Assembly (NCBI GenBank): GCA_977862235.1
Contig: OZ374559.1
Location: forward strand, 1,302,001-1,366,000
Direction: 5' to 3'
Length of the DNA: 64,000 bases
From: Dudresnaya verticillata
Lineage: Eukaryota
In this document: positions 1,051-63,075 of the stretch, piece after piece
Position numbering within the stretch: position 1 is the stretch's first letter
How the letters are laid out: the number at the start of each line of letters is the position of its first letter
Made by a program: the position numbers and the translations under genes
The notes under the pieces: generated by a model
Told to the model about the DNA's origin: nothing
Database searches by the model: none
The model's input: only the letters and a program-made list of their open reading frames with translations

Positions 1051-1916
1051 CGATTAAACCAAAACAACGAAACATTAATATCCAGGTGTTCGACAAAGCG
1101 CCAACATATTTCTGCACTGTCGTAACTTCTCAGCCTTTAGACACGACAAGCTAAGCATATCGTCAGCAGGCTTAAGTTTCAAATCGCTGCTTCAGCACAC
1201 GGCGTTCGTAGCATTAAAACAGGTCATCGAATGTTGGTTTGTTCCCGAGCATACCGTCAGCTTTCCGACAAAACGTCTGGTTGAGGTCCGCAGTTTGGCT
1301 TGTACCACAGCAAACAAGCTTGAAGAATTACGTATAGTCAAAAACAGCTAAGCCAATGTGAGCAGTAAAGTGCAATGTAACAGAATCTGTGACGGTTCCT
1401 GTAATGAACTCGAAAAGAACCATACCGTGTCCATCAGACGTCATCCAAAGCGAAGTCGAGGAGTAGATGAAGTCGATCAAAATCGCTGTGAGCTGGCAGT
1501 TGCTGAGGAATGCGTGCGCTGCTTGCACAATTTGTTTTGAGATGCGAACATTTAAACGAACATTGCAGAATCTATGAATGTGTGCTGCCCAGTACTTTCG
1601 GCGATCCGCGCGTCTTGCCCGGCACTATCGCATACAGTGTACATCTTCCACGCGGAGTGTGGGGTTGAAACCCAACGGTTGAAAGAACAGCTTGGTTTCT
1701 TCAGATCCTTCCGTTTCGAAGGCCTCAATATCGAAACTCGGTGCAGCGCTACTTCTCCCTTTACAACTCACCGTGTCCTTTTTAATAAGCGTTGCAAGGT
1801 TTCATCTCCTTCAGAATATTCATTTGAAGTACTTGAGTACGACTCGAGAGACCAGGTGCCATCGCTTCCGGTTTTTAGGTTCGCATCTTGCCCGAGTCCC
1901 CAAAACGTCTTGAATA

Positions 1917-3893
1917 ATGGCGGCCCGCAAAGTGCAGATCGAGATGGAGAAGGTATTTAAGAAGGTTGATGAGGGGCTCTCCCACTTTGAAGAGCTGTGG
2001 GATAAGGTGTACGACAGCGCTTATCAAGCTCAGCGAGACAAAAATGAGGATGCGCTGAAGAAGGAGCTGAAGAAGCTTCAAAGGCTACGTCAACAGATAA
2101 ATCAGTGGTTGGCGGACAACGCCATCAAGATCAAGACGAAGCTTGTCGACTACCGCAGCAAAATAGAGGAGAAGATGGAGATGTTCAAGGCCAGCGAAAG
2201 AGATTCTAAATTGAAGGCATTTTCCAACGTAGGGCTCATGCAACACAAGATTCATCCTGATGAAAAGGAGAAGGAGGATGCTGAAGAGTGGATAACGGAG
2301 GTTATTTCTCAACTGAAGAAGGAGTACGAAACTGGGGAAGCAGAGCTAGAGGCTTTGAACTCTGTGAAGAAGAAAAAGAAACGGAAAGACAACCGAAACA
2401 CCAGAGCCTCTGAGATGCGCGAGAAACTACAGAGACATGAGCATCATGTTCAAAAGCTTGAACGCGTTTTGCGAGCTCTGCTCAACGGCAATGTCACTCC
2501 TCAACAAATATGGGATGTCAAGGATGGAGTTGAGTATTATCTTGAGAGCAACGAAGACCCAAGCTTTATTGACGATGAAGAGCTGTACGACGAACTCGAC
2601 TTAGAGCCCGTCGATTTCGTGGGATCTCATCGGATGCCTCGACAGAAGAGGGAAAAGGAAGAAGAGCATGAACGTGCAGGCAGCGAAAGCAATTTGGAGA
2701 AAAGAATGAGCTCTCCAGAGCCGGAAAATCTAGAGTCTCGGGACAAGGACGAGATCCGTTCTCCTGCTGTCAAGCGAGAAGCTCCCGAGTGCGAAACGGG
2801 TGCCTTAGGGGATGACGAAATTGGGGAAGACGCTCCAAGGATCTCAGCTCTCAACAGCTTCAAACATGTCCACGAGAAGAAGGGGAGGGCAGGTTCCGAT
2901 TATGCGCAACCTCAAGACTCTCTTGGGAATGCGGCTGTAGTTGGCAGCGTTCCAATCAGGGACATCTCTGAGGATCATGGAGTGAAATCACTGACGGCAG
3001 TTGCGAGTTCTCTTCATACGGTGCGAGAAGGAGGTTCTCCGGTGAGAATTACGGTTCGTGGCCGTGATTGTGGTGAAAGAGCTGTTGACGCATCTAGAGA
3101 CAACCGTGATAACGAAAAGCTAGGTTACAATTCGCAGCGGCCGGAGACGTTCAAGGATGTCGCAGTTATAGAAGTGGGCAATGCGGGTACTGCTGCGAAG
3201 TCTCAGACGGTGAAGGAATTTCACCTTGATAATGAGGACCCTGTTGAGTTTCCTGAGCTGGAACAAAGTGCAAAGCAGAAGCGCATCATGGAACAAGAGG
3301 AACAAGCCGCTCGAGATTTCGATCGGGAACGAATCCGAAGATGCGATCGTATCGTTACGACAATGCCGCGAATCAGCAAGAGGACAGCCGCTGAAGACCT
3401 AGCTAGGCTACAGACGTCATTAGGTTGTCTTCCGGAACCGGAGTTGCGTTATGAGGGACTACCGGAAAGCTCGTCAACTACACCCCGCAAACCAGATGAT
3501 GGTGATGACGCATCTAAGATTATCTTGGAGAACATGAAGTTTCGCCTCCTGGTTCATGGCCCCCGCATATTCCCGAGCTCCGTCCCGGCAACTGAGAGCC
3601 GCGCGAAATTCTTAAAGAAGGTAGATGTAGACGTTCTCTTCTTCATCTTTTACTACCAACAAGAAACAGATGATCAGTTTCTAGCGGCGATCGAACTTAG
3701 GCAGCGCGGATGGAAGTTGCACAAGAGACTGCAGTACTGGTTTCTAAAGAAAGGCGCAGCCGGGGACCTTGAAGCCTATTCATACTTTGACTTCAAAATG
3801 CACCTCGAAGCTGGCCGCGTTTGTGGGTGGTGCGAGAAAAGAGCGGCAGAGTTTGACGCTGAGGAAAATTTCATTCTCTCCGACCTTGTATGA
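1917..3893 (+). CDS. NOT3: CCR4-NOT complex subunit NOT3/NOT5 (CNOT3-like), intronless, 658 aa
   Basis: N-terminal Not3 domain (MAARKVQIEMEKVFKKVDEG..LKKELKKLQRLRQQI..SKLKAFSNVGL) and C-terminal NOT-box (LFFIFYYQQ..QFLAAIELRQRGWKLHKRLQYWF). Confidence 0.93.
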   Translation: MAARKVQIEMEKVFKKVDEGLSHFEELWDKVYDSAYQAQRDKNEDALKKELKKLQRLRQQINQWLADNAIKIKTKLVDYRSKIEEKMEMFKASERDSKLKAFSNVGLMQHKIHPDEKEKEDAEEWITEVISQLKKEYETGEAELEALNSVKKKKKRKDNRNTRASEMREKLQRHEHHVQKLERVLRALLNGNVTPQQIWDVKDGVEYYLESNEDPSFIDDEELYDELDLEPVDFVGSHRMPRQKREKEEEHERAGSESNLEKRMSSPEPENLESRDKDEIRSPAVKREAPECETGALGDDEIGEDAPRISALNSFKHVHEKKGRAGSDYAQPQDSLGNAAVVGSVPIRDISEDHGVKSLTAVASSLHTVREGGSPVRITVRGRDCGERAVDASRDNRDNEKLGYNSQRPETFKDVAVIEVGNAGTAAKSQTVKEFHLDNEDPVEFPELEQSAKQKRIMEQEEQAARDFDRERIRRCDRIVTTMPRISKRTAAEDLARLQTSLGCLPEPELRYEGLPESSSTTPRKPDDGDDASKIILENMKFRLLVHGPRIFPSSVPATESRAKFLKKVDVDVLFFIFYYQQETDDQFLAAIELRQRGWKLHKRLQYWFLKKGAAGDLEAYSYFDFKMHLEAGRVCGWCEKRAAEFDAEENFILSDLV

Positions 3894-11454: not shown

Positions 11455-13268
11455 AGATCCCGTCCCGTACCGAAACGGGGAGGAGTGAGGGTGTGCGTGT
11501 GAGGGAGAAGAAGAACATGACCGTGCGTGCTCCCCGCCCGCCCATGCTGTTGCTCACACCTGCCGATCCGTCCCTCGTCAGTAGCCGTTATGCTACAGGC
11601 CTTCTTTGCTGATGTCATTCATGACCCCACCTTTCTCATCTCTGGACGTCTTTCTGGCGTGTCGTGTCGTGCCGTATGTCTATGCCTCGTAGCACTAGTC
11701 TATATTTGTCTCCGCAGTAGTCCACTCATCTTTTCTGTTGCAGCTGTATCTCTTGCAGAGTATATCACTCCTGCCATGCTGAAGAGGAAGAAGAAGGACA
11801 TGGTTGAGGGCATGCTGCTTTCAGCGTCCCGGCTCTAGACATCCTCCTCCACCCCTCGTGCCGTGCAAAAGTGCGTATGGGTCTGGCTTCGTTCTTTTCG
11901 TCTATCGTTGCTATTCCGTTATTTGTAAACCTGATTCCTTGATACTCACCAACCTTCTCTGAGTTTGGCAGTTTTTTTGACTTGGCTAGCTGGATCATTG
12001 TGCGTTTCTTATCAATGGACAAAAACGACCTGTTTGCCAAATTTGTCCTCTTCCCATTAGCTCCACAACATAGTTCTAGCAAAGTGTGAAGTCAAATCCG
12101 CGTACCGCTGTCGCTCCAGGCAAAAGAGCACACGTTGACAAGACCGGTCATCAAGAACGCAGTGGCTGAATTCAGAGCTAAAAGTCACACCCGCTGCCCG
12201 CTTTGTAGATTTCGTTACGACGGACAGCCCCAATAAACAGGAGAGTCAGGCTTCGAAGCTACTTGTGGATTAGTAACACGGGCAAAAGCTTGCATGGCTG
12301 CGCGCGGGTGCGTCTATTTCGGAGTTCAATGGCGGGCTATTGAGACTTGCAAGTTGCCGAGTACGTACTGTACGCCCCTCTGTATGCCGCAGAGGGGATG
12401 ACCTTGTCTTACAGAGTTCCGGAAAGCTTACAGTCGTTCGTTCAGGGCCGCACTGTTTGATTTTGCGTTTCGGAGAACGATATGGCATATCGTGATTGGG
12501 TAGTTAGCCTGTCTGGCCCTTGTGGCATGCCCACGTGCCCAGTACATGCCATGCACACCACAATACGCGTGCATTGAATTGTCAAATGCGCTGTAATCCC
12601 CCCAATCGCAACATTGCTGGCAACTCGTGGGAGGCTACCCCCTGAACGGTGTCGGTCGAGAAAGGGAGGTCAATCTGACGGATGTGGTCTTGTAGGGCCA
12701 CGAGTGCGGACCGATGGGGTCTTCTTATGATACCCGTCCCGGTACTGCGTTGTCTGCTGCGAAGGTGGGTCGGGAATATAGGGAGGGCCGGGGCGTGTTG
12801 CGTCGTGTAGTAGAATGGCTTCCAAGCCAACAGAACCTGCAGCACAGCACGACAGCTGTCCTGGAGGAGCATTCCCACTTGCGTGGTTGGTAGCTCGGTT
12901 AGGCACAGACGTCAGGTCGAAATGACGTCTAGCTGTGCTGGTCGATCAGTCGCGCCCAGAAACATCGAAGGGTGGTGGGTGTAGTAGAATGGCCCTCGGC
13001 CAGGTAGTCGCCGATAAAACGGCGCGACAGCTGTCCTGGGGACAAACACTCACGGTGGGCGGTAGCTCAAAGGAAAACGGGAAAAGGGGTGTGGTAGAGA
13101 CTTGTAATGGGTGTAATACCCAGGAACAAAGAAAAGGGAAGGCGAACCCTGCAGCGTAGAGCAATCTTCGTACACGATAGGGCTTGTAGACGCCCAAGGC
13201 AAGGGAACAATGGTGGTGTGGCACCGTAGGAAGACCAGAAAATGGGTACAACCCAAACTACGCACCGA

Positions 13269-13669
13269 TGTAGTAGAATGGCTTGAAGCCAACAGAGACG
13301 GCGACACGGCACGACAGCTGTCCTCAAAGAGCGATCCCACTCACGTGGTTGGTAGCTCGGTAAAGGGGTGGTAGAGACTTGAAAGGGCTTAAAGCCCTAA
13401 CAAAGGAAAAAGGGAAAGCCGAACCCTGCTGAATAGAGCAATTTGTCGTAGACGACAGGGCTTGCAGACGCCCAAAGGGAAGTTGTAGCGGTAGCACCGT
13501 AAGCGTGCAAAAAGGGGAAAACGCAAGGGACAGACCGCTGCCGGTTTAGTGCCGGGCCCCTGCTACTCAGGGGCCCCATAAATACGGCGAGAGCCGAAAA
13601 GGTGCTCCTCGCTCAGTTAGAGCTCTATGGCTAATACTTAGCTAATACTGTACAATACAGGTAGGATAT
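13269..13669 (-). repeat. Element C 3' LTR, piece 1 (split by D)
   Basis: Aligns to 48436-48837. Confidence 0.93.
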
Positions 13670-14520
13670 TGTGGTATAGACGCTATCCGTGAAACGACTC
13701 CGTGTTCTACGTGAAAATAATCGAGAAATACGAATTTCGAGATGACTCCGTGAATGCGCACGCCACGATGGCAAACGTATTACAGCGATGCATACGGTGC
13801 GCGCGCCACGATGGCATACGCATTACAGCACGCACGTGATACGAAATCGCTGACACCTCCGGACGAATCCCGATCCGACTTCGTGATCGCGCGCGCCACG
13901 ATGGCATTCGCATTACAGTGCGCACCCGATACGAAATCGCTGACACCTTCGTGACTTTCCGGTTGTTTCCCGCGCGTAACGGCACCAGGGCCCACGAGAC
14001 ACGCGCACCTCCGTATGCATCGCTGGCGCACTTCGCAACCGCCACCATACGTGAGGCGACCGTTCGCTGGCACCGAGGCCGTTACGAATCATTCGAGTAC
14101 GAACCGTCTCCCGAGTTGACGCGCATTCGTGCTCACGTAGTACTACTTAGCCAGTCGTCTGGCACAACCTCCGAGGGTTTCCGGTAAGCGACTAGCGCCC
14201 GGACCTCGGAGTCTTCGGTAAACGCTGTTTCTTCGAGTTCGGTGTCTTCGTCTTCGTGACCGCGGATACGGTCGAGCCTCGCTTTCGATAGCCTCGAGCA
14301 CCCGGAGTTATCCCCGGTGATCGATCGCTCGAGTTCTCCCTTCCGCACACGAATACGTTGACACCGTGGTCCTTCGTGTTAGCCGCTCCGCTCTACCACG
14401 CTACCACCCCTTTTCGTTTCATTCGTTAGGCTACGAGGCCATTCGCTAGGCTCCGAGGCCATTCGCTTACAGTGCGAGACTTCCCCGCGTCTCCGTGGAC
14501 TTCGTTTTCGTTATACCACA
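13670..14520 (+). repeat. Element D 5' LTR (851 bp)
   Basis: Two substitutions versus 35403-36253 by manual comparison. Confidence 0.96.
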
Positions 14521-14521: not shown

Positions 14522-14539
14522 TGGTCTCCCGACCTAGAA
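14522..14539 (+). promoter_or_regulatory. Element D primer-binding site, tRNA-Tyr type
   Basis: TGGTCTCCCGACCTAGAA, 1 nt after the LTR. Its complement gives G72-A73-CCA, the eukaryotic tRNA-Tyr identity set. Confidence 0.85.
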
Positions 14540-21652: not shown

Positions 21653-22935
21653 CGCTCCCGCTCATCCGGTTTGCGCGTCGCACTGTCCTCACTACTCAAA
21701 AGGCCCCGGAGCCACACCCCGCCCTCGCTAGCCACGCGCTCACTACGTAGCTGCTCATTTCGATTGCCTCGGAGCATCCGATCGCCCAGTGCCGCTCGGC
21801 GCACATCGCGGCCCAACTTCGTGACCCTCGACTTCGTAGTTCACGACGTCGCGCACGCCCACAGGCCCCGACACACCCGCATGCCTCGGAGCAGATGGCC
21901 GCCACCTCGCACATGACGCTACCGCAGCTGCGCACTCTCGATGACACGCGACGCACGCCAACGCAACCCGCCGCGACACTCTCGGCCGCGCGCCGCATGA
22001 CACCGAGGTCCTCGGAGACGACACGCCACCGCATCAACGAGACGCGATCACGGAGCCCTTGCCCTCACGAAGTTGCGCTCCACGCCGTCGGGCGGGGTCG
22101 ACCACCCCCGCCCCAACTCAGCGCCCCTCGTGAAATCCGCAAAGGCGCCCCGCGCGCACGCGATTGCACCGCGGCACTCGCATTACAGGGGCTGACACCG
22201 CGACGGACGGACGGACACGGTGCCCTATCCGTAATTTTCATACGCACCTGATGTCATACTGCGAGGCCGATGCCACCCGCAACGCGCACTTCGACTTTGC
22301 AACCCGCGCCTCACTTGCTACACGGAGTTCACTTGTTACGACGCGCCTTCGCAATGACCACGGAGTCCTCGTTTTCGCCAAGCGCAATCCTCTCGCATGG
22401 CCTCGGCGCCCCTTTACGCATACGTTCCGCCCGCACCGATGCGCCCCCGAAGCAGCTCGCACGCGCCAGCCCGGGAGCTCACGCAATTTTCATCGAAACA
22501 CCCGAAGCAGCTCTCCGAGGAGCACGTATCCGCCACCAACCCCCCCAAGCACGTCGGCGCGAACGCCTTCGTCTTGAGGAGGGGGCCGTGCACGTGAAAT
22601 TCCGAAGTCTCGATGACCCCGCCATTCGAGAACCAAAGCTGCGATTTCGAATCCGTTTTGTCTCCGTGATTCCCGAGGTCTTCGTGCACTCCGAAGTCCA
22701 AGTCAATCGCGATTCGCAACTCTTGGTTTGTCGCGGTCGGACCGTATCGAAATTCCGTGCACCGTTTCGCATCGTTTGCACCCGCATGCACGCCATTCGA
22801 GAACCGAAGCTGCGATTTCGAATCCGTTTTGTCTCCGTGATTCCCGAGGTATTCGCGGACTCCGAGGTCCAAGTCAATCGCGATTCGCAACTCTCGGTTT
22901 GTCGCGGTCGGACCGTATCGAAATTCCGTGCACCG

Positions 22936-23686
22936 TGTGGCGCAAATCGCCTTGGCGCCCTGCTGAAGAATTCTTCATAATGCCGCCACCTGCGGCTCAC
23001 GCGACTGTGGACGACGGACGCACAGCGGCCGGTTCCTGCGGATCAACCGCTGTGCGGGTGATTGAGCTCAGAGCCAATTTCTATAATGAGCTCTGGCACC
23101 ACGCGCACGCACCAGCAATGCTAATGGGGAAATGCCTCTGTAAGGCGCCCGGCCTGACAGTACGCGGCGCCCTCTGCCAGCAAGGATGGCCCCGCAACGC
23201 GACAGCGCGTACACGCGCACACGTGCGCCCACTTGGCGCGCACCTTTCAGCCGCACTACCGCTAGGCTGACAGTTGATATTTTTAGATAATTATAGAATT
23301 GCGCGCGCCACGTAATGCCAAGTGGCGCGCCCCCTTCCCTTACTTTAATCCGCCACCAAGGCGCACCCGCCTCCTACATAGTATATTACGGCCCCGAGGT
23401 GCGCCCTCATACAGTAAACGGCTAAGCTTGGGCCCAGCGAGACGTACCCTCCTACCCTATCGACTTCCTCTTTAGGCTGGACTCCAGTACATCCGCTACC
23501 CTTCTTCATCGTACAGAATCCTGTTTTTCCTTCCTTCTAAGGAACCTCCCTTTTCTGTCTTTTGGTGTTTTACAGTCACACCAAGGGGCATTCCCCAGCT
23601 CTACCAACCAGCCCTCGCTACCCACGGGCCCCCGAACAGCCCGAGGTGTATCCTCTGTCGTTTCTTCCTCAGTGGATTGCACCACA
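22936..23686 (+). repeat. Element E 5' LTR (751 bp)
   Basis: About 10 substitutions and 2 indels (23 bp total) versus 34370-35143. Confidence 0.95.
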
Positions 23687-23688
23687 TT

Positions 23689-23706
23689 TGGTGTCCCGAC
23701 CTAGAA
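23689..23706 (+). promoter_or_regulatory. Element E primer-binding site
   Basis: TGGTGTCCCGACCTAGAA, 17/18 identical to the D and G PBS. Confidence 0.85.
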
Positions 23707-32582: not shown

Positions 32583-34184
32583 CTAGACGGGCTGGATCTC
32601 CTCGTCGCTGCCGCGGATGGCAACCTCGGGAATTCCCGTCCTACGCAAATAGCCGATTACGGCAATCCGCTGACTAAAGCTCAACCTCACACGACGAGCG
32701 CGAGGCTGGCCCACGGGGTCGGGCGACGGTGGACGAATGGCTGGCGGCCGAACGATCGGAACGCTCGCAATCACAGGGCCGCTGCCGTCGCCACTTGCCT
32801 CACCCGTTTCGGCCGACGTTCCCGCCGCCCCGCTCGGAGCCTCATCAGCCGGCACTGTCGCAACCGGGCATCCCTCACCAACCGGCGCGTCGACCGTCAT
32901 CGTGTCATCATCGGGGATTTCCCCATTACTGCCCGCGTCGGAGGACCGTTCCTCATAATCCGACTCCGCAATGCCACCCGCCTCGGGGTCCACCAGGTAG
33001 CCTCGCGGCTGACCAGGCGGCATCGAACGCGGGTGGCTACGTAACCAAGCGGCACGGCCCGCAGCGACGAAAGTGCGTGTCCAAGGGTCAAACCATGCCC
33101 AATCGCCGCAAGACGGGTGACGACGCCCAGGCGAGAAATTGGTCGATGAGGAACTCCTCTTGTTGTTGCACAGAGGGACCCTGTGATCGTCTTGGTCCCA
33201 ATCAACCTGGGTATAAAACCCCATCAGTACGCGGAATTCCGCTTCATTGTTAAGTCCGCCGAGGACAATCCTCAAGTCCAACTGGGCAAAGAGCGTCAGG
33301 ACTGTGGGAGATACGTACCACATGCGGTACGTATCATACAATTCCCATAGCCACTGCACAGCCGTTTTCGCCACGAACTCCGTGTAGTACACGGTCCACA
33401 ATCCCGACTGCGGGTAGCCGATAACGGATGACATGGTGTAACTCACCGCGGGGGACAACGCGACGAGGAAACCCTCACAACACTGCACCAAGCCCCACTG
33501 TGGGACGGGCAGCCGCACATAACATCGATCACGATAAGTGCGATGGATTGCGTCGATTTCGACATTCGGGTAGGGCACCAGGAAGCCCAGACGGGAGCGA
33601 GCGCGACGCTCCCAACGAATCTTGTCCCAGTATGCGTTGTTCTCGCGTTTGCGCACAAAGCGGAATTCCGCACGAAGCTGCACGCCAAGTAACAGTGCCG
33701 ACTGGCGCACCCGAGGCTCGACCCCATCCCACGCGTGCGGAATGGGGAGGTTCTCAAGGGCATCAGCATAGGGGATTTCCCCAACGGTGCGGTAGACGCC
33801 AAGGTCAAGCCAGTAACCGTGCGGTATGACCACCCGACAAGGAGTGCGGGAAAGCCGCTGGAAGACCAAGCGGACATACCGCAACCTTGCCTTGCGCATG
33901 TCCTCCCCGCCGTGACGGCGGATCCAATCTGGACGAATGGCGCCATGCCGCCGCCAGTCAGGCGTCCTTAATACGCGCAGGGGAAGCTCCCCAGGAAGGA
34001 AACCGTCTTCCGAAACATACTGCTCGATGAGGGCATGGTTCCCGAAATTATTGTGGAACATCCACGGAGCGTTCGCGAACTCAACCAGGTCGCGCCAAGG
34101 CGTTTTGCCTTCAAACTCGGCCGGCGTTGGATAAGATGCAGATGTCTGCGGGGCGCGCAACAGCACGCGGTCAAGCTCCGCCAT
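32583..34184 (-). CDS. Element E antisense accessory ORF, unknown function (533 aa from ATG 34184; 609 aa from an ATG in the 3' LTR at 34412)
   Basis: Long open frame rich in W/Y/F with globular-looking composition. Colinear similarity to the antisense ORFs of C and G. Confidence 0.85.
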   Translation of the reverse strand: MAELDRVLLRAPQTSASYPTPAEFEGKTPWRDLVEFANAPWMFHNNFGNHALIEQYVSEDGFLPGELPLRVLRTPDWRRHGAIRPDWIRRHGGEDMRKARLRYVRLVFQRLSRTPCRVVIPHGYWLDLGVYRTVGEIPYADALENLPIPHAWDGVEPRVRQSALLLGVQLRAEFRFVRKRENNAYWDKIRWERRARSRLGFLVPYPNVEIDAIHRTYRDRCYVRLPVPQWGLVQCCEGFLVALSPAVSYTMSSVIGYPQSGLWTVYYTEFVAKTAVQWLWELYDTYRMWYVSPTVLTLFAQLDLRIVLGGLNNEAEFRVLMGFYTQVDWDQDDHRVPLCNNKRSSSSTNFSPGRRHPSCGDWAWFDPWTRTFVAAGRAAWLRSHPRSMPPGQPRGYLVDPEAGGIAESDYEERSSDAGSNGEIPDDDTMTVDAPVGEGCPVATVPADEAPSGAAGTSAETGEASGDGSGPVIASVPIVRPPAIRPPSPDPVGQPRARRVRLSFSQRIAVIGYLRRTGIPEVAIRGSDEEIQPV

Positions 34185-34353
34185 TGAAAAGTTCGGCGGT
34201 ATTGTCCGACGTAGGATGCCGCGGAACGGGGGCGCGACGCGGGACTCCGCAAGATAAAACACGCTGCCACCACTGCAGCGCTGGAAACAGACACCGCAGC
34301 TCCAACCTGCGAAGGATAAGTCTGCTCGTGTGGGCTCGTGCGGGTACTCGCCG

Positions 34354-34369
34354 CTTAACGGGGGGGAGA
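34354..34369 (+). promoter_or_regulatory. Element E polypurine tract
   Basis: CTTAACGGGGGGGAGA abutting the TG of the 3' LTR. Confidence 0.85.
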
Positions 34370-35143
34370 TGTGGCGCAAATCACCTTGGCGCCCTGCTGA
34401 AGAATTCTTCATAATGCCGCCACCTGCGGCTCACGCGACTGCGGACGACGGACGCACAGCGGCCGGTTCCTGCGGATCAACCGCTGTGCGGGTGATTGAG
34501 CTCAGAGCCAATTTCTATAATGAGTTCTGGCACCACGCGCACGCACCAGCAATGCTAATGGGGAAATGCCTCTGTAAGGCGCCCGGCTTGACAGTACGCG
34601 GCGCCCTCTGCCAGCAAGGATGGCCCCGCAACGCGACAGCGCGTACACGCGCACACGTGCGCCCACTTGGCGCGCACCTTTCAGCCGCACTACCGCTAGG
34701 CTGACAGTTGATATTTTTAGATAATTATAGAATTGCGCGCGCCACGTAATGCCAAGTGGCGCGCCCTCTTCCCTTACTTTAATCCGCCACCACGGCGCAC
34801 CCGCCTCCTACATAGTATATTAAGGCCCCGAGGTGCGCCCTCATACAGTAAACGGCTAAGCTTGGGCCCAGCGAGACGTACCCTCCTACCCTATCGACTT
34901 CCTCTTTAGGCTGGACTCCAGTACATCCGCTACCCTTCTTCATCGTACAGAGTCCTGTTTTTCCTTTATTTTCTCTTGTTTTTTTCTTCCTTCTAAGGAA
35001 CCTCTTTTTTTCTGTCTTTTGGTGTTTTACAGTCACACCAAGGGGCATTCCCCAGCTCTACCAACCAGCCCTCGCTACCCACGGGCCCCCGAACAGCCCG
35101 AGGTGTATCCTCTGTCGTTTCTTCCTCAGTGGATTGCACCACA
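34370..35143 (+). repeat. Element E 3' LTR (774 bp)
   Basis: Direct repeat of 22936-23686. Confidence 0.95.
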
Positions 35144-35389
35144 CACCGTTTTGCATCGTTTGCACCCGCATGCACGCCATTCGAGAACCGAAGCTGCGAT
35201 TTCGAATCCCTTTTGTCTCCGTGATTCCCGAGATCTTCGCGGACTCCGAAGTCCAAGTCAATCGCGATTCGCAACTCTCGGTTTGTCGCAGTCGGACGAT
35301 ATCGAAATTCTGCGCTTTGTATTGCATCGTTTGCACGCAGGCCACGCCAATTCGTAAATCCGTAACCCGCGACCGGGACGTTCGCTCTT

Positions 35390-35402: not shown

Positions 35403-36253
35403 TGTGGTATAGACGCTATCCGTAAAACGACTCCGTGGTCTACGTGAAAATAATCGAGAAATACGAATTTCGAGATGACTCCGTGAATGCGCACGCCACG
35501 ATGGCAAACGTATTACAGCGATGCATACGGTGCGCGCGCCACGATGGCATACGCATTACAGCACGCACGTGATACGAAATCGCTGACACCTCCGGACGAA
35601 TCCCGATCCGACTTCGTGATCGCGCGCGCCACGATGGCATTCGCATTACAGTGCGCACCCGATACGAAATCGCTGACACCTTCGTGACTTTCCGGTTGTT
35701 TCCCGCGCGTAACGGCACCAGGGCCCACGAGACACGCGCACCTCCGTATGCATCGCTGGCGCACTTCGCAACCGCCACCATACGTGAGGCGACCGTTCGC
35801 TGGCACCGAGGCCGTTACGAATCATTCGAGTACGAACCGTCTCCCGAGTTGACGCGCATTCGTGCTCACGTAGTACTACTTAGCCAGTCGTCTGGCACAA
35901 CCTCCGAGGGTTTCCGGTAAGCGACTAGCGCCCGGACCTCGGAGTCTTCGGTAAACGCTGTTTCTTCGAGTTCGGTGTCTTCGTCTTCGTGACCGCGGAT
36001 ACGGTCGAGCCTCGCTTTCGATAGCCTCGAGCACCCGGAGTTATCCCCGGTGATCGATCGCTCGAGTTCTCCCTTCCGCACACGAATACGTTGACACCGT
36101 GGTCCTTCGTGTTAGCCGCTCCGCTCTACCACGCTACCACCCCTTTTCGTTTCATTCGTTAGGCTACGAGGCCATTCGCTAGGCTCCGAGGCCATTCGCT
36201 TACAGTGCGAGACTTCCCCGCGTCTCCGTGGACTTCGTTTTCGTTATACCACA
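35403..36253 (+). repeat. Element D 3' LTR (851 bp)
   Basis: Direct repeat of 13670-14520. Confidence 0.96.
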
Positions 36254-36258
36254 GATAT

Positions 36259-36583
36259 GTCCTTAGATAGGAATGAGTGGTCAGGCCACAAGGCGAGCGC
36301 GGCGCCACTGTCAGGCGCCGCGCGGCAAACATCCGCCAGCAATGCATGGCGCGATGGTGCGGCCATAGTTAATCCCCAAATGGCACAGTGCCATATCATC
36401 TGGAGCAGTGTGCCTTACAGATCAACTCTGTACACGTGTTGCCTTACAGCGCAGGAGCGTTCCAGCAATGAAATCAATCGGAGCACCAGCCATACCACCC
36501 GGGCAGTTGTGCGCCTGTCATTCCTTACAGAGGACTCGTGTCCACGTGGCTCCTTACAGGGCGTCAACGCCCGTTATACCACA
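36259..36583 (-). repeat. Element C 3' LTR, piece 2
   Basis: Aligns to 48838-49162. Confidence 0.93.
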
Positions 36584-37458: not shown

Positions 37459-39726
37459 ATGGCACCGCCTCGTTTGGCCTATGGGGTCGCTGGCTCGAGT
37501 GCCAATGTGCTAGGCCACTAAGTGGATGCGGCTGGAGTGCCGTTGGCTGTCTCCCAGAGCCGCGACTAGCTTCTGCGTACAGACCTCGCACACTTCAAGG
37601 TGCGCGCGGGGGCCAGTCGCGAAGAGATTCGCCGACGCGGCAGCCGAGTGGCTCAAAGCCGAGTATGGAATACCCTTATGCGGGCTAGGGTGAGCACCCT
37701 TACGGGGACCAACCGGTTCCTCCCCGTGTTGGATGGCGACGCCAATACCCTTCAGTGGGACCTTGCCTACGTGGGGTTTCGGCACGAGGTGCCTTGGAGC
37801 AACAACATAGCTCGGAAGCTAACGTCTGAAGCGGTCTTGTTGGAAGAGATCCATCACGGGGGCGGTTGGGACCTGCGCATGGTGATGCACGAACGGCCAC
37901 TTATTCGCGCCGGCAGGGATAACTTTCCCTATACCCTCGCCCGCATCGTGCGGTGGGATGAGTCTTCAAATCTGAAGAATCTGAAGTATGCCCTGGATAA
38001 CCCCCAAACGGCGAAGCTGTTAGAGCACGCTCGCTTCGAGCGGCGTCAACATCACAAGACGGGCTGCTTGGTTCCCTGCCATTGCCAAGAGGAATCGGCT
38101 TTGAAGCCGGAGTTCTACAATGGGAAGTACCCACTGGTCCCGGATGACCACAAGAATTATGAAGTCTCATATTCCATGCCAGAGGGAGTGCCAACCGTCA
38201 TTGCCTACCTCGGTTTGGAAATGATGGCCAAAGCCATGGACGATAGTGTGCTATGGAGCATCTTCCGACACGAGTGGGTCGTGATCGTTACGCAGACGCT
38301 TGTCTATGAGGCTCGTCGAGGCCTGTTATTCTTCATAAGCCAGCCTCTTCGTGTTGCCATTAGGGCCCTGGGCCCTGCGGGACTATGTTGGAACGAATCC
38401 GATGCCAAGGACTTGGAAGCCCTCTTGCGCTTCGTGGAGTGGATTCGGTGGAGTCAGGTCTCCAAGCGCAACCGTCACCTTCCTGACAATACAGGTCATC
38501 TCACACCGGTTTTCAACCGCGGGGACTGGGTCGACTTTGATCCAGTCAAGTGGCACCCGGTGTTGCCCGAGTATATGGTGCAACCCTAACCGTCTGAGGA
38601 GAGTCCTCTCACTCTTGACGAAGGCATTCGTATGACCGGTTTCACCACTGGTTGGGTTAGTGTCAAATGGCGTGAGCCAGGGCCACAGACTCCGGAAGAT
38701 GTTCCGTCTTTTGACACTACCGTCGACGGTCAGGCCCAGGGGCCTCATGCACCTACTGCATCCGCGTATGCGAAGGCGGATCAGGTTATCCGAGATGTAT
38801 TCAACAGGCGTGGTCTGGCTATTCGCCTCTTTGCTCATTGGGACTTTCGTCACCTGAACATCCACAGCCTCGCGGATTGGGTGGAAGAAGTCATGGTAGA
38901 CTACGAAAGTGAGCGGATGAAGACCCCAGGTCCTGTTGAGCAAATGGAGCGTCTCCGTGCTCACTTCGAGTCTCTTCCGCCCCTTGGCAAACGCGCCCTG
39001 AAGGCCGATCCTGCTCCGCGTCGTGGCATAAGCCATATTGGGATGTCATCAGTTAAGATGGAGTCGACCAGCGTCGCAGGAGTTGATCCTCGTGCTCAAA
39101 CGAGCGAGGACATGGCAGTGGTGCCACGGGAGGAGTCGTCTGCGACGGTGGTGAAGGGCGGGGCTTCGGCTTCGAAGCCGGTCGAGAGAGGTCTTCATCA
39201 GGAGGCGGTCGCCTCGTCGGTGACGCCTCAGGCACCTACCACGGCATTAGCCGGCTTTGCCCCCTCGGGGGAGCTCTTGGGCGAAGACTGCCCACGGACT
39301 GGCTCTCAAGCCATGGTGAAGCACAACGCCCCAGAGTCGGCTTCGGGATCTAAAGCGGTTGCCCCGGGCAACGAGGGCTCAAAGGCCACAACGGTTCATA
39401 CTCAAGAGGGGGCCCAGACCGAGAAGGCTCCAGTTGATAAGGACGACGTGGTCGTGAAGACAGAGTTAGTCGTCAAAGAAGAGGACGAAGTGGATCCCAG
39501 TGTTTCCGCGACGGCTCACGGTGTGGATGCGATGGAAATCGAGCAGCCGATAGCGGGGAGCCAAGGCGATGATAACGTGGAATCACGTCACGAGCGCGGT
39601 AGTCGTCGACTTGGTCGAGGGCGTCGCGTTGTACGCGAGGTCCGTCGCGTAGTGATATATCACTCGACTCCGCAGCCTAACCCTCCGCTTGAGGAGGACG
39701 AGTTCATCGACCTATTGTCTGATTAA
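37459..39726 (+). pseudogene. Element C antisense accessory ORF (~755 codons, one frame, three in-frame stops)
   Basis: ATG 37459 and track ORFs 37600..38589 and 38632..39726 are all in one frame. Stops at 37519, 37567 and 38587. Homologous to the E antisense ORF. Confidence 0.82.
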
Positions 39727-40430
39727 GTGGTTTGCTCAATCACCTTGCTCCCTTATGCGCCTTAGGCGCCCGTCCCGTAATCCGCCTTACTTGGGCAAGA
39801 GCGGCTTATCCGCTAACGTAAAGTAATTCTTCTTGTTGAATCACCTTCGGCTTGGAGCCGACTTGTTAGTAGCTTAGCCCATTGAGTTTTCTGTACGCTC
39901 GGCACCATGACGCAATTGCGTGTTCGTATTCCTTGGAGGAGCCACTGTAGCTCGGTGCCACTGTAGGGGCTCTGTGCCGCGGATATTTCTTCCACGAATT
40001 TTGATTCGTCGTGCAATCCGCCTCTCCCCTTGGGAAGGGCCAATGAGGGGCTGCCATCTCAGAAGGAGCCACTCTACAGTAGGGATGATTCACACTGTAG
40101 AGTTGAACTCTATTTGGCGCCAACGCCTGCCGTGCTGGTCAGTCGGAGCCTATTCAGGGTGAGACCCCTCTTTCTAGGGAGAGGGGTCTCGTGTTCCCTT
40201 CTTCCTTCCGTTTTTAGCGCGGGGGCGAGCGGCGCCGGGTGACTCATAGGTCATGGGACCTCCAAAAAGACGTTGACGTCTTGAGTGATAGAAGGAGTCA
40301 TGGCTTATGAGCCAGGAGGTTGTCTGAGAGGCTCTATGCCTGAGGTCGCTTCTTCCGCGTTTGCGACATGTCACGTTGCCACGTTCCAGAGCTCGTGCCC
40401 TATGGTTCCCACCATTTCCTACACTTTAGC

Positions 40431-40589
40431 CAAGGTCCTGAACCTTCCATATCTTCTATCCATTTCATCTATCCAAGGTCTTGAACCTTCCATATTACAC
40501 ATCCATTTCATCTATCCAAGGTCTTGAACCTTCCATATTATACATCCATTTCATCTATCCAAGGTCTTGAACCTTCCGTATTATACATC
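40431..40589. repeat. Element C tandem repeat, ~3.7 x 43 bp
   Basis: CAAGGTCYTGAACCTTCC units at 40431, 40474, 40517 and 40560. Confidence 0.92.
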
Positions 40590-40739
40590 GCATTGGCGCT
40601 TCCTCTAAGACATCGGTCTTGTGTTACACTACCACTCGCCTCTCGTATCCAGAGGGAGGGGGAGAACGTACGCCATTGGCATTATGAAACAGGGTTTCCT
40701 TCTGGCCACAGGTTGATATACAGACTGGTATCCCAGTAG

Positions 40740-48416: not shown

Positions 48417-48434
48417 TTCTAGGTCGGCAGACCA
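48417..48434 (-). promoter_or_regulatory. Element C primer-binding site
   Basis: Minus strand TGGTCTGCCGACCTAGAA, 17/18 identical to the D and G PBS. Confidence 0.85.
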
Positions 48435-48435: not shown

Positions 48436-49162
48436 TGTAGTAGAATGGCTTTGAAGCCAACAGAGACGGCGACACGGCACGACAGCTGTCCTCAAAGAGC
48501 GATCCCACTCGCGTGGTTGGTAGCTTGGTAAAGGGGTGGTAGAGACTTGAAAGGGCTTAAAGCCCTAACGAAGGAAAAAGGGAAAGGCGAACCCCGCTGA
48601 ATAGAGCAATTCGTCGTAGACGACAGGGCTTGTAGACGCCCAAAGGGAAGTTGTAGCGGTAGCACCGTAAGCGTGCAAAAAGGGGAAAACCCAAGGCACA
48701 GACCGCTGCCGGTTTAGTGCCGGGCCCCTGCTACTTAGGGGCCCCATAAATACGGCGAGAGCCGAAAAGGTGCTCCTCGCTCAGTTAGAGCTCTATGGCT
48801 AATACTTAGCTAATACTGTACAATACAGGTAGGATATGTCCTTAGATAGGAATGAGTGGTCAGGCCACAAGGCGAGCGCGGCGCCACTGTCAGGCGCCGC
48901 GCTGCAAACATCCGCCAGCAATGCATGGCGCGATGGTGCGGCCATAGTTAATCCCCAAAAGGCACAGTGCCATATCATCTGGAGCAGTGTGCCTTACAGA
49001 TCAGCTCTGTACACATGTTGCCTTACAGCGCAGGAGCGTTCCAGCAATGAAATCAATCGGAGCACCAGCCATACCACCCGGGCAGTTGTGCGCCTGTCAT
49101 TCCTTACAGAGGACTCGTGTCCACGTGGCTCCTTACAGGGCGTCAACGCCCGTTATACCACA
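48436..49162 (-). repeat. Element C 5' LTR (727 bp)
   Basis: About 14 substitutions and 1 indel versus the rejoined 3' LTR. Confidence 0.94.
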
Positions 49163-49239
49163 ACCGATGCCCGTTTAGTTCGGGTCCCCTGATACTCAGG
49201 GCCCAATAAATACGGCGGGAAGCCGAAAATGCTACCCAC

Positions 49240-49913
49240 TGTGGTGTAGTGAAAACCCACGAACTCCGAGACAGACAGCTGGCCTGACTTTCCTTAACGG
49301 ACGAGAGCAACACTACCTCCACAGGGTGGTAGAGCAGTTCGGACCGAGAGGGGAGAACAGCGAACGGCTAACCGAGACGGATATTGGGAAGCAACAGACA
49401 AGGGGGTGGTACAAGTGCCGGGACGGACTCCGTAACGGTAGTGGTGATAGACCGCAACGAGCTCGGCGCGGGGAAAACCGTAAAGGATTGGGCTAAGGTT
49501 GTTACCCGTTTACCTTAGGAGCCGCTGCGGTGCCGCCCTGATATACAAGTCAAGGTGGCACCGAGCGGTCCGGTCCGTGTGGGCCAGATCCTAGTGGTCT
49601 TGTCCTGTAGTGGAATCGGACCTGCTGGTCCCAATCTCCGACACGGACATGCGCAGCATTCTCATTGGCTGGCGCACTACTCTACATACTGTACAAATAC
49701 TCACTAAACATAAAGAATAAACACTACAAATACTCCGGTATGCTTGGTGCGCTGCACTGCTGTACAGCAGTGCGTACCGGCGTACAGCAATGCGCACAAC
49801 ATCCGACACGGTTACACGTTGCCAGATCATCAGCGTGGCGTATTGCCACATCACCCGTTACGGTTGGCTCGCCGTCGGCGTACCGCATGCGCGCCACGGC
49901 TCACTTCACCACA
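49240..49913 (-). mobile_element. Solo LTR F (674 bp) inserted in solo LTR B
   Basis: TGTGGTGTAGTGA...TCACTTCACCACA (12/13 inverted). TSD CCCAC at 49235-49239 and 49914-49918. Orientation inferred from the GCTCTACC motif. Confidence 0.9.
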
Positions 49914-50269: not shown

Positions 50270-51392
50270 TGTGGCAGAATGCATGCTGTCAGCAGAAGGG
50301 CTTACAGGAGCGCACTCCTTTTTGCGGGACAGACGGTCCCTTGATCGGGACAGCTGTCCTTTCATCGCTGCACACGTCGACAACACGTGTGTACACGTGG
50401 CCAACACATGGCCTACACGCGGCCTTACAGCTGTACACGTGGCTTACACGTGGCATTATGAGGACGCCAATTGGACGATGCATATTGGCTGATTTATGAC
50501 GCGACGCTGCGCTCCTACTCATGGACGAGGAGCGCCCCCGCGCGCGGGGTATCGACAATGCAGCCGACAGCCCGGCTTGAGCACCGGTCTTGTCGTAAAA
50601 CAGGCGTTGACGCCCTGTAAGGAGCCATGTGGACACGAGTCCTCTGTAAGGAATCGCCGGCGCACAACCGCCCGGGTGATATGGCTGGCTTACAGATTGA
50701 TTTAATTGCGGAAGCGCTCCTGCGCTGTAAGGCAACGCGAGTGCAGCTTTAATCAGTCAGGAACACAGCTTCATGTAGTGCCAGGGGGTCCCCCTTTTTC
50801 GCTTTCAAGCGGGTTGATATGCCGCGTCTACCGACGGATGGCCGCCAACGGCGCGTTCAACCCGCCCGCGGCGCAAACACGTCACCGACGCATACGGCTT
50901 GCCACCTGGGCCAGAACGGCTCACTTCGGGTGCAGACTGCACACCTGAACCCGGGGTACTGTACGGCGCCACGCGTGCGCGCGTGGCGCAGTGGCGGGAA
51001 CGTTCGCTGTAAGTGTGGCCCGGATCCGGATCCAATCGGGATCCCACATCGGGATCAGACATCGGGATTAAGAGGTGTAAGGCACGCGCCTGTAAGCCTG
51101 GCGCGTTCGCATTGCTGGCCCGAATCCGGATTGGATCGGGACTAGCGCGGATCGAGATCGCACACACCAGGAGGCGCGTGCGGCTGTAAGGAAGTACATC
51201 CACGTGTAGGTGTAAGGACTTGAGTGGGGAAGCTACGCGTGATCTGTCAGGAGCGTGGCTGCATGACGGACGGATCTGTCAGACGCGCCTCGGGACAACA
51301 CGTGTCCCGAGTTCCCGCGCGGCGCCCGCGCACGCGTCACCGCCGTTAGGTAGTTCTATTCTTAGTTGATCCGTCCCAGACGTTGAGGTAAA
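50270..51392 (+). mobile_element. LTR-like sequence H/I (one or two truncated LTRs, candidate starts 50270 and 50591)
   Basis: TGTGGCAGAAT at 50270. From 50591 (TGTCGTAAAACAGGCGTTGACG) ~145 bp match the U3 start of the C LTR. Far ends and TSDs are outside the window. Confidence 0.55.
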
Positions 51393-52183
51393 TGTGGTGC
51401 AACGCCCAGGCCCTCTCCGAGCTGGGGGTTGATAACCCCATTTATGCGCGTGATCGCTCGCGCGCGTCCGCGACGCGCGCCGCCAAGCTGGGCTTTCCCA
51501 TTGGGCCGTGGCTGACCACTACCGCGGGCCCGCGCCCACACTTGGAGCTTTCCCCCGCCGTCGCCTTTACAGGGCCGCACTCGCCGCCTTACAGCCACCG
51601 CCACGCAAGCGCGCACAAGACACGCGCAACACACGTGACACGTGCACACGCGCACACGCACGCGTCATTACAAGTCTTACAGCGTGCTGGTGTCGGTGTA
51701 CGTACAGTAGGTACACTGTGCTACTGTAGTGTTAGTTTATTGTACTCTAGTGTTAGTTTATTTGCTAGTGTACAGTAGCCCTAGTCGCCACCGCCGCGGC
51801 GCCGCCGCCGGCGGTGGGACTTAAGGGGCTAGGACCGACCTCCTACAGTAAACCCAACCAAGCTTCGGCTCCACACTTAGGGTACCCCCTACCTCCGTGC
51901 GCTTGGCGAGTGAAGCCATCGCGGAGCTAGGCTACGTATGCCTGTGGTGCTGACACCTTTTCTACCTTCGTGTTCACACGCTTGTTGTGCCGGTGCCCCC
52001 ACCTTCTGGCTCACTGCGTGCTCACACGGCTTTGGTGTGTGTTTACAGTCCGCACACTGGGGCCTTCCCCTTGCTCTACCCTACCACGCACTGACGCGCT
52101 CACACGCGTCACCGCGGCTACCCTCCCACGTCGGACTCGTGGGTTGTGTTGGTTGCGACCCTCATTCGGAGGGTTGCACTACA
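51393..52183 (+). repeat. Element G 5' LTR (~791 bp)
   Basis: TGTGGTGCAAC...GTTGCACTACA (10/11 inverted). The end could be 52185. Partner LTR not in window. Confidence 0.75.
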
Positions 52184-52189: not shown

Positions 52190-52207
52190 TGGTCTCCCGA
52201 CCTAGAA
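52190..52207 (+). promoter_or_regulatory. Element G primer-binding site
   Basis: TGGTCTCCCGACCTAGAA, identical to D. Confidence 0.87.
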
Positions 52208-61913: not shown

Positions 61914-63075
61914 TACATGGCCGGCGTGCGCGCGGTGCGAGGCGCCGGCAAGGGGCACCCAAAAGGGCACGTGTCCCCACGAAAACAAGGCGCATGCGCC
62001 AGCAATGCCTGTGGTGCAACGGCAAGGGGGCCGCCGAAAGGAAGAAAATCGACGGGGCAACTGTACGATCGGCCCAACCAAACGAAGACAGGTGGCCAAC
62101 GAAGTCGAGCCGTCGGCGCGCGGACGGCGGTCAGCGCGCGCAAGTATGATACGTGGCCACCAGCTGTACACGTGGCTCACACGTGGCCACCTACGACACT
62201 GAAGCGCACCACGTGTCCTGCTGTACATGTATGATCCGGTTCGCGGCCGGACACAAATGGAAATTGGATTTGGCCGCAAGGTGAATCCAAGAGAAGACAG
62301 TGGAAAAATCAAGGGAAAATCTAACTCGCATGGCCAACCACTAACGAACAAGTACTTGGTTTAGTCTGGTAAGGGTACAGCATTGGCCCGACGCCGGAAC
62401 ACAAGTAGATAATATGGCCGACCGGAGTAACCTCGGCCACTAACTGTAGAATAGCTCTAGATTAGCTCAGATGGCCGATTTTGGGCCTACTTAGCTGGCC
62501 ACACACTACGGCTAAGCCGAAAAAGGTACGAAGCCGTCCCGCCAGAGGTTGGGAGTAAAGTTAGCAACTGAACCCCCGACTTGGCCATTCTCCGTCCTTA
62601 TCACGGATTCTGGCCACGACTTCGTCTGCGCGCTCCCGCTCTACCACGCTTGCTACCGGCGCGCAGGTCCGTTCTACGTTCTGGCCAGTTTTGGTCAAAT
62701 CCGACAGGTCTTTGTGGTCTTCTTGGGGTCTCGTTGTGCTGCCGTACGCGGTGGTGCTCTAGAGATACTACAATGCCCACGCGTCGTGGGACAGACGGAC
62801 GGACCGCCTGCGCATCCCCGCGCACCGCCGCGCACCGTCGCGCGCATCCCCGCGCATCGTCGCGCGCCGCCCGCGCGCCTCCCGCGTCCCGCGCACATCG
62901 TCGCGCGGCGCCCGCGCGCCGCCCGCGTCCGGCTTCACTCGCCAACAGGGGAATACCCCCAAGCTTAGCGCTTTATTTTTGGGAACACCCACGCGCTAGA
63001 CGCGACTTGCTACTACGCGAGTCAAACGCGCTGGCGCTCGCCCCTACGTGTCTACACGCCACTACAGCGACCCCG

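What the first reader, a model, noticed from the sequence alone, without database searches (positions are those of the whole stretch)
23562..23706. Three-part tRNA-Tyr docking site: PBS plus anticodon-complementary hairpin loop plus D-loop-complementary box
Seen: all four PBSs are TGGTCTCCCGACCTAGAA or one mismatch from it. Upstream, in the LTR 3' portion, a hairpin exposes TTTACAGTC in E (stem 23562-23568/23578-23584) and G (52034-52041/52051-52058, differing stem sequence) and TTACAGT in D (14463-14477). A GCTCTACC box lies about 90-130 nt from the LTR end: D TCCGCTCTACCA 14387-14398, E GCTCTACCAAC 23598-23608, G 52073-52080, and reverse-strand versions in B, C and F. Known: eukaryotic tRNA-Tyr has C1:G72/A73, an anticodon arm GACUGUA(A/G)A and often a D-arm GUUGGUAGAGC(GGA). 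Extended primer contacts exist in HIV-1, Ty1 and Ty3. Plant chromoviruses mostly use tRNA-iMet. Inference: a kissing-loop and D-arm primer-capture system conserved across otherwise unalignable LTRs.
Basis: partly seen in the sequence, partly recalled or inferred. Interest (0 to 1): 0.75.

Follow-up and report, generated by a model that had tools for sequence, protein, structure and literature searches.

The report
Extra tRNA grip in algal retrotransposons
Jumping genes of what is likely a red alga keep two short sequence boxes about 70-135 bases ahead of their primer site even when the rest of their end repeats no longer align, and the first box likely gives the host tRNA primer a second, untested hold through its D arm, a variation on primer contacts known from yeast Ty elements and HIV.

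Summary
The motifs sit at the stated coordinates, in nested Ty3/Gypsy LTR retrotransposons of a probable red alga. The D-arm box is real. It is in 0 of 11 control regions, and chance is 3-6% per LTR. A second box, GCTACC, follows it in 8 of 9. Against a natural tRNA-Tyr, the longest perfect complement (8-13 nt) falls on the D arm in 10 of 11 LTR segments. The anticodon hairpin is well supported only in the related pair E/G (13-14 bp stems, invariant 9-nt loop, compensating insertion). D's copy resembles its own U3 repeat, and 6 of 9 families lack it, so a general three-part site is not supported. The host tRNA was not found; Tyr is inferred from C1:G72/A73. Best reading: a U5 extension of the primer binding site that pairs with the primer's D arm, like the Ty1/Ty3 boxes but upstream of a full PBS. 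No pairing was tested experimentally.

The parts
22936..23686 (+). 5' LTR of element E (TG...CA; element flanked by TSD CACCG)
23415..23418 (+). single TAAA of LTR E, likely poly(A) signal, with a TATA-like stretch about 33 nt upstream; places the boxes in U5 (inferred)
23556..23590 (+). E hairpin, 13 bp, loop TTTACAGTC (23569-23577) complementary to the tRNA-Tyr anticodon arm
23598..23608 (+). E box 1, complementary to tRNA D loop and 3' D stem (11 nt against the L342 tRNA)
23617..23622 (+). E box 2 (GCTACC), partner uncertain
23689..23706 (+). PBS of E, one mismatch to the shared 18-mer
13670..14520 (+). 5' LTR of element D (3' LTR 35403-36253; TSD GATAT)
14387..14405 (+). D box 1 plus box 2; a 21-mer here is identical in L313 from the second host
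14463..14477 (+). D short hairpin with loop TTACAGT; resembles D's U3 repeat, so equivocal
14522..14539 (+). PBS of D
50774..52183 (+). 5' LTR of element G
52028..52064 (+). G hairpin, 14 bp, same 9-nt loop (52042-52050), three extra pairs next to the loop relative to E
52073..52122 (+). G box 1 (52073-52080) and box 2 (52117-52122) with a hairpin between them
52190..52207 (+). PBS of G
48436..49162 (-). 5' LTR of element F; box 1 at 48544-48538, box 2 at 48524-48519; 3' LTR split by D (13269-13669 and 36254-36583); TSD ACCGA
48417..48434 (-). PBS of F, one mismatch
49240..49913 (-). solo LTR H (5-bp TSD) with box 1 at 49335-49328 and no box 2
62010..62772 (+). solo LTR J (TSD ATGCC) with box 1 (62636-62647) and box 2 (62652-62657), predicted near the tip of a long stem
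12980..13267 (-).
34370..35143 (+). 3' LTR of E with the same hairpin and boxes

Best explanation
These Ty3/Gypsy elements carry a conserved two-box motif near the 3' end of the LTR, likely in U5, and its first box likely base-pairs with the D arm of the primer tRNA (probably tRNA-Tyr), which would extend the primer binding site. Shown: the 18-nt PBS, box 1 in 9 of 9 families at -82 to -134, box 2 after it in 8 of 9, and complementarity of box 1 and its flanks to nt ~15-29 of a natural tRNA-Tyr. Inferred steps: (1) the boxes are in U5, so present once in the genomic RNA, 5' of the PBS; (2) the PBS tends to fold on itself, while the boxes are predicted mostly unpaired in E, F, G, L229 and L230; (3) Gag/nucleocapsid anneals the tRNA 3' end to the PBS and the loosened D arm pairs with box 1, helping select, package or hold the primer, and reverse transcriptase later displaces it during strong-stop synthesis; (4) the E/G lineage adds a hairpin whose 9-nt loop would kiss the anticodon loop, an optional third contact; (5) box 2 is either a second, weaker D-loop site or pairs with tRNA nt 6-12.
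For: Box 1 is in 9 of 9 LTR families and occurs once per LTR; chance per LTR 0.027-0.059; box 1 followed by box 2 within 45 nt has chance at most 0.0033 per LTR and is seen in 8 of 9. It is the top shared 7-mer in an unbiased count, and no 7-mer reached 6 of 6 in 2000 shuffles. The LTRs do not align with one another apart from D/L313 (the 21-nt box region only), L229/L230 and F/B. The identical PBS occurs in 5 contigs of G001, a second host's DNA, and 3 of 3 with a long enough LTR have both boxes. Tyr-type PBS elements fall in three RT lineages (quick tree). Longest Watson-Crick complement to the 5' exon of the L342 tRNA-Tyr: 8-13 nt in 11 of 11 segments, on the D arm in 10, against 5-8 nt at scattered places in 11 controls. 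Flanks follow the tRNA: CCG precedes the box in D, J, L230 and L313, and G.U-compatible bases in G and H. No conserved intramolecular partner: GGTAGAG occurs in 2 of 15 element parts, both inside coding sequence. C1:G72 in 71 of 73 and A73 in 72 of 73 eukaryote-type tRNA-Tyr genes held (set preselected for Tyr). Precedent: Ty1/Ty3 pair with the TPsiC and DHU arms (PMC4974528 and PMC5371799, passages); HIV-1 A-rich loop with the anticodon (PMC11181671, passages).
Against: The host tRNA was never seen; all pairings use proxies. GGUAGAGC is shared by many tRNA isotypes, so box 1 does not itself specify Tyr. The controls come from other hosts and another RT clade, so absence there is confounded with ancestry. 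Ala- and Asn-type elements show no matching D-arm box, although such tRNAs often have similar D arms (recalled). L178 has a Tyr-like PBS (2 mismatches) and neither box, though no clear LTR end either. L222 and L225 have the PBS but only 100 and 56 nt upstream, with no box in that span, and were left out of the count. Duplex energies are mixed: D, E, L230, L313 beat shuffles (0-4 of 200), F, G, H, B1, B2, L229 do not (15-86 of 200), and one control, L184, does (3 of 200). With G.U allowed the gap narrows (9-13 nt against 7-11). Box 1 is predicted largely paired in D and L313 (0.41, 0.24 unpaired), and in a longer fold G's loop is sequestered. The first base of GCTCTACC mismatches in F, B and L229. 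Box 2 as partner of nt 6-12 needs G7.U66, seen in 0 of 73 genes.
Confidence: 0.66

Rival explanations
1. The two boxes are a tandem CTACC recognition site for a protein (Gag packaging signal, host RNA-binding protein, or a DNA-binding factor such as a MYB acting downstream of the promoter); the match to tRNA is incidental.
For: Both boxes share CTACC and look like a tandem repeat in D and L313; box 2 has no convincing tRNA partner; they are shown near a stem tip in J and L229; ACCAACC/CCTACC resemble plant MYB AC elements (recalled, no call).
Against: Does not explain why the 11-13 nt versions in D, E, J, L230 and L313 read as a perfect complement of a tRNA-Tyr D arm, nor the strict strand and distance from the PBS.
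Confidence: 0.17
2. Full three-part docking: every family also uses an anticodon kissing loop.
For: E and G keep the 9-nt loop exactly while G has three added pairs on both arms and several A-U to G.U changes; D has a 7-nt loop version (chance about 0.016 per LTR); TTACGG, which a G.U pair would allow, occurs in F, H and L230.
Against: In a loop in only 3 of 9 families and 0 of 5 held-out ones; absent altogether from J, L229, L313; L313 has the opposite orientation; the core has 8-12% chance per LTR; D's copy mirrors its U3 repeat.
Confidence: 0.07
3. The boxes are target sites for 5' tRNA fragments or halves that regulate the element's RNA, not for the intact primer.
For: The complement lies wholly in the tRNA 5' third; 5' tRFs target Gypsy RNAs in Arabidopsis pollen (PMC8215267, passages).
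Against: A silencing target would not be expected to be kept by the element across lineages and hosts; the pairing is split and short; it tracks the PBS type.
Confidence: 0.05
4. Relic of a tRNA-derived insertion or Pol III promoter on the minus strand, as in Helenus LTRs.
For: Box 1 then box 2 is the order of an antisense tRNA 5' end: the same pattern retrieves tRNA-gene-like matches. Helenus LTRs carry tRNA-derived boxes A and B (PMC10886601, passages).
Against: No B-box complement in any of 11 Tyr-type LTR segments; the spacer varies from 2 to 36 nt and drops the A14 region of box A; no ARAGORN call in the window and no Rfam match in three second-host LTR loci.
Confidence: 0.05

Closest known systems
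Yeast Ty1 extended PBS (tRNAiMet; regions complementary to the TPsiC and DHU arms; PMC4974528 passages)
   Same: Short element sequences outside the core PBS complementary to the primer's D arm; needed in Ty1 for primer packaging and initiation.
   Different: Ty1 is Copia, has a 10-nt PBS and its extra sites lie 3' of it in GAG; here Gypsy, a full 18-nt PBS, a probable tRNA-Tyr, and sites 70-135 nt 5' of the PBS in the LTR. In Ty1, CYC5 is complementary to the DHU stem yet works by pairing with CYC3; no such partner was found here.
Yeast Ty3 5'-3' bipartite PBS (PMC5371799, PMC4974528 passages)
   Same: Gypsy element; D arm of the primer pairs with LTR-derived RNA.
   Different: Ty3's extra segments are at the 3' end (U3) and bridge the two RNA ends; here the boxes are inferred to be in U5 at the 5' end only.
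HIV-1 A-rich loop and primer activation signal (PMC11181671 passages)
   Same: Contacts upstream of an 18-nt PBS, one of them a loop complementary to the anticodon, as in E/G.
   Different: HIV-1 contacts the anticodon loop (4 A's, recalled) and TPsiC arm of tRNALys3; here the conserved contact is the D arm, and the anticodon loop match is 9 nt but confined to one lineage.
Plant and algal chromoviruses (REXdb, PMC6317226; PMC3605345 passages)
   Same: PR-RT-RH-IN order, 5-bp TSD, C-terminal chromodomain in D and G.
   Different: Those surveyed use mostly tRNA-Met or self-priming; REXdb passages gave no hit for Rhodophyta or tRNA-Tyr. E and F show no chromodomain hit and carry antisense ORFs.
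Fungal Copia/Helenus PBS on the tRNA-Tyr anticodon loop (PMC10886601 passages)
   Same: Retroelement RNA complementary to the tRNA-Tyr anticodon region.
   Different: There it is the PBS itself (half-tRNA priming, next to the LTR end); here the PBS is a normal 3'-end site and the anticodon match is an extra loop inside the LTR.

Membership tests
Ty3/Gypsy LTR retrotransposon | gag then pol with RT, RNase H, integrase in that order | tested here: met
   Pfam Retrotrans_gag, RVT_1, RT_RNaseH, Integrase_H2C2, rve in order in D, E, F, G
Ty3/Gypsy LTR retrotransposon | paired TG...CA LTRs, TSD, PBS next to the 5' LTR | tested here: met
   D, E, F complete with 5-bp TSDs; G's 3' LTR is not in the window
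Chromovirus | chromodomain at the integrase C-terminus | tested here: inconclusive
   PF00385 in D and G, none in E or F
Chromovirus | RT groups with reference chromovirus clades | not tested
   no reference set held; the tree has only window and fetched rows
tRNA-Tyr-primed element | PBS complementary to the 3' 18 nt of a host tRNA-Tyr | tested here: inconclusive
   host gene not found; PBS implies G72/A73, as in 71-72 of 73 Tyr genes held; a GTA-anticodon gene in L218/L219, read by eye and not called by ARAGORN, has the same T stem
Extended primer-template interaction (Ty1/Ty3/HIV-1 type) | conserved complementarity to the primer outside the PBS | tested here: met
   box 1 in 9 of 9 families; 8-13 nt complement to a proxy tRNA-Tyr
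Extended primer-template interaction (Ty1/Ty3/HIV-1 type) | site present in the genomic RNA | tested here: inconclusive
   inferred from TATA-like and TAAA positions; no transcript data
Extended primer-template interaction (Ty1/Ty3/HIV-1 type) | pairing shown by probing or compensatory mutation | not testable with these tools
   needs bench work
Extended primer-template interaction (Ty1/Ty3/HIV-1 type) | site changes when the primer tRNA changes | tested here: inconclusive
   boxes absent from 10 of 10 Asn/Ala/Arg-type controls, but no substitute boxes seen and host and clade are confounded
Helenus-type tRNA-derived LTR (Pol III promoter) | tRNA boxes A and B in the LTR | tested here: not met
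   no B-box complement, variable spacer in place of the A-box core, no tRNA call

The most novel reading that the evidence does not exclude
A widespread red-algal Gypsy lineage clamps most of its tRNA-Tyr primer: 18 nt at the PBS, the D arm and 5' strand through two U5 boxes displayed on stem tips, and in the E/G branch a 9-bp kissing loop on the anticodon. It would be a naturally replicated, alignment-free example of modular primer capture upstream of the PBS, in which contacts are gained and lost by lineage.
Probability: 0.3. Interest if true: 0.72.

Novelty: new variant of a known kind. Interest (0 to 1): 0.55.

Why it matters
Primer contacts outside the PBS have been shown by experiment in a few models (Ty1, Ty3, HIV-1, FIV, RSV) and are debated even in HIV-1. 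Here selection has kept such a complement across LTRs that no longer align and across two hosts, which is comparative evidence of a kind those models lack. It places a D-arm contact upstream of a full PBS, a geometry not seen in the papers read, and gives a short diagnostic motif for finding and orienting solo LTRs in these genomes (it revealed H and J). It is a variation on a known theme, not a new mechanism.

Tried and rejected
No whole genome is held for the window. No sequencing run was listed, so no RNA holder listed; this is no evidence on expression. Search for the primer tRNA: a 15-nt scan of viral contigs gave 15 hits, none a tRNA or PBS; the T-loop-plus-acceptor pattern gave 0 in genome contigs; a looser one gave 5 viral hits; no tRNA in 60 of the 80 metagenome loci scanned; 47 tRNA matches in G001, none with the PBS complement; 257, 401 and 52 genomes scanned gave only G001 and one chance hit, L393. 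The L342 tRNA-Tyr ends differently and cannot be the primer. RT patterns found no relative in viral contigs. Extending L222 and L225 upstream failed. Twenty further CTCTACCA sites fetched from G001 gave no new LTR. Host naming by protein homology failed. No shared motif in the leaders 3' of the PBS beyond TTCGCC in 5 of 9. Rejected: a cyclization partner inside the element; a Pol III promoter; whole-duplex energy as a test (noisy). The careful RT tree did not finish; the quick tree is reported, with 4 short rows dropped. Friant 1996 (PMC145666) is not held, so Ty1 details come from reviews.

Full report
Setting. The window holds an intronless NOT3 gene and an NAD(P)H-binding gene, then a nest of Ty3/Gypsy elements. 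F lies on the minus strand (5' LTR 49162-48436); D is inserted in F's 3' LTR; E is inserted in D; G starts at 50774 and its 3' LTR is outside the window. D, E and F have 5-bp TSDs. E and G have interrupted pol frames; D and G have a chromodomain hit.

Host. No genome or run is held, and protein searches named no close relative. The closest DNA relatives (62-73% RT identity) are eukaryotic contigs binned into a bacterial MAG, G001. That bin also holds a 28.6-kb mitochondrial contig read with TGA=Trp whose gene set and order I recognise from memory as florideophyte red algal, and a tRNA cluster (L342) that looks animal-like to me. A red-algal host is therefore likely, not shown.

Observation. 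Four PBS matches against 0.07 expected; the hairpins and boxes are at the stated places. Corrections: B, C and F read TCTCTACC; E and G are one lineage (77% RT identity; aligned U5 block); D's loop is nearly a copy of its own U3 repeat.

Box 1 is conserved. The identical PBS occurs in 5 contigs of G001. Three have a long LTR upstream (L229, L230, L313); two (L222, L225) have only 100 and 56 nt, show no box in that span, and were left out. Across the nine families D, E, F, G, H, J, L229, L230, L313, CTCTACC starts 82-134 nt before the LTR end in 9 of 9 and occurs once per LTR; seven have an adjoining PBS, H and J are solo. Dinucleotide shuffles give 0.027-0.059 per LTR. In an unbiased count it was the top shared 7-mer (8 of 8 then held), and among six unalignable LTRs no 7-mer reached 6 of 6 in 2000 shuffles. 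D and L313, from different hosts, share only a 21-mer, which spans the boxes. Of 15 CTCTACC sites in the window, 10 are these LTR sites and 5 are internal.

Box 2. GCTACC follows 2-36 nt after box 1 in 8 of 9 families (not H); the ordered pair has chance at most 0.0033 per LTR. The same ordered pattern retrieves tRNA-gene-like matches from genomes, so the pair resembles the antisense of a tRNA 5' end with the middle removed. Pairing with nt 6-12 would need G7.U66, seen in 0 of 73 Tyr genes held; a second D-loop site is as plausible. Its partner is open.

Controls. The metagenome scan returned 80 loci, mostly from a 60-70% GC host. Twenty PBS-like sites were read; I used 11, one or a few per group of near-identical copies (3 Asn-like, 6 Ala-like, 1 Arg-like, and L178; isotype labels are recalled). 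Box 1 is in 0 of 11. The Asn-, Ala- and Arg-type elements form a separate RT clade from other hosts (quick tree, 73 rows), so the contrast is confounded. L178 has a Tyr-like PBS with two mismatches and no boxes, but no clear LTR end.

Match to tRNA. The host tRNA was not found. The PBS implies G72 and A73, as in 71 and 72 of 73 eukaryote-type Tyr genes from viral contigs (the set was selected by D-loop and anticodon motifs). A GTA-anticodon gene in L218/L219, read by eye, has the same T stem as the PBS predicts. As an unselected proxy I used the 5' exon of the L342 gene (ARAGORN left its isotype open; I read it as intron-bearing Tyr). The longest perfect complement in the last 200 nt was 8-13 nt in 11 of 11 Tyr-type segments (nine families plus B1, B2), on the D arm in 10 and on the anticodon arm in G, against 5-8 nt at scattered places in 11 controls. 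With G.U pairs the ranges overlap (9-13 against 7-11). Whole-duplex energies favoured D, E, L230, L313 but not F, G, H, B1, B2, L229, and favoured one control.

Anticodon hairpin. E and G fold 13- and 14-bp stems around the same loop UUUACAGUC; G has three extra pairs next to the loop and G.U for A-U further down. That supports a real hairpin with a constrained loop, on two sequences only. A TTAC[AG]G core inside a loop was found in D, E, G of 8 families tested and 0 of 11 controls; J lacks the core. F, H and L230 have TTACGG outside a loop, at 8-12% chance each; L313 has the sense version. In a longer fold G's loop can be sequestered. So this contact is lineage-specific at best.

Position in the RNA. 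Each window LTR has one TAAA 217-335 nt before its end (G has a second far upstream), in E, F and H about 30-36 nt after a TATA-like stretch; the G001 LTRs have one near -504 to -533, L229 and L313 with further ones. UAAA is the poly(A) signal in Cyanidioschyzon merolae, 3-35 nt before cleavage (PMC8831791, passages). The boxes are thus inferred to be in U5. No conserved intramolecular partner exists. The PBS can fold on itself in D, F, G; box 1 is predicted 0.68-0.96 unpaired in E, F, G, L229, L230 but 0.41 and 0.24 in D and L313.

Mechanism. Most likely (0.66) box 1 pairs with the primer's D arm once the tRNA 3' end is on the PBS, aiding primer selection, packaging or initiation, with the E/G loop as an optional anticodon contact. 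Rivals: protein site (0.17), general three-part site (0.07), 5' tRF target (0.05), tRNA-derived relic (0.05).

Literature. All papers were seen as search passages only; no supplements were read, and REXdb's PBS tables (supplementary) may list Tyr-type sites. Ty1 and Ty3 pair with the TPsiC and D arms, 3' of the PBS or at the 3' end (PMC4974528; PMC5371799). HIV-1 uses an A-rich loop and PAS upstream of the PBS (PMC11181671; PMC3185550). Plant elements use mainly tRNA-Met, Arg, Lys, Asp, Asn (PMC6317226); beet chromoviruses use Met (PMC3605345). Helenus and fungal half-tRNA-Tyr priming differ (PMC10886601). PMC3601003 and PMC8473020 passages had nothing on such boxes. Searches showed no paper on this PBS or on U5 D-arm boxes in algal elements; the library lacks most subscription papers and Repbase.

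Verdict. Interest 0.55.

Noticed in passing
window 32583-34430 (-) and 37570-39726 (+): Long ORFs antisense to elements E (615 aa) and F (339 + 378 aa) between pol and the 3' LTR; no Pfam hit, no usable Atlas hit for E's; F's first part weakly matches L165.
   Followed up: partly
   Followed up: yes
window 49159-50773 and 12806-13267: An older F-like LTR appears split by F, H and G; its U5 end (B) is partly duplicated.
   Followed up: partly
window LTRs D, E, F, G (U3 parts): CTGTAAG/CTTACAG recurs several times on both strands in U3, with CACGTG and TACAGTA also shared; likely transcription-factor sites.
   Followed up: partly
window 22589-22931, 35144-35354, 61550-61900, 40427-40594: Tandem repeats (171, 89/45 and 43 nt units) in the 3' internal regions of D, G and F.
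   Followed up: no
window 56535-61028: G's integrase has a roughly 600-aa low-complexity stretch before its chromodomain; E has a similar extension without a chromodomain hit.
   Followed up: no
G001 (L221-L230, L329-L330, L342): A GTDB bacterial MAG contains a red-algal-type mitochondrial contig, many eukaryotic retrotransposon contigs and a eukaryotic tRNA cluster: heavy contamination.
   Followed up: partly
L218 and L219 (just before position 221): Intron-bearing GTA-anticodon tRNA genes in viral contigs that ARAGORN did not call.
   Followed up: partly
L313 about 164 nt before the LTR end: The LTR carries the sense anticodon-arm sequence GACTGTAA rather than its complement; unexplained, possibly a tRNA mimic or chance.
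   Followed up: no
window 1914-3893: Intronless, divergent NOT3 gene (best hits 37-44% over the N-terminal third).
   Followed up: partly
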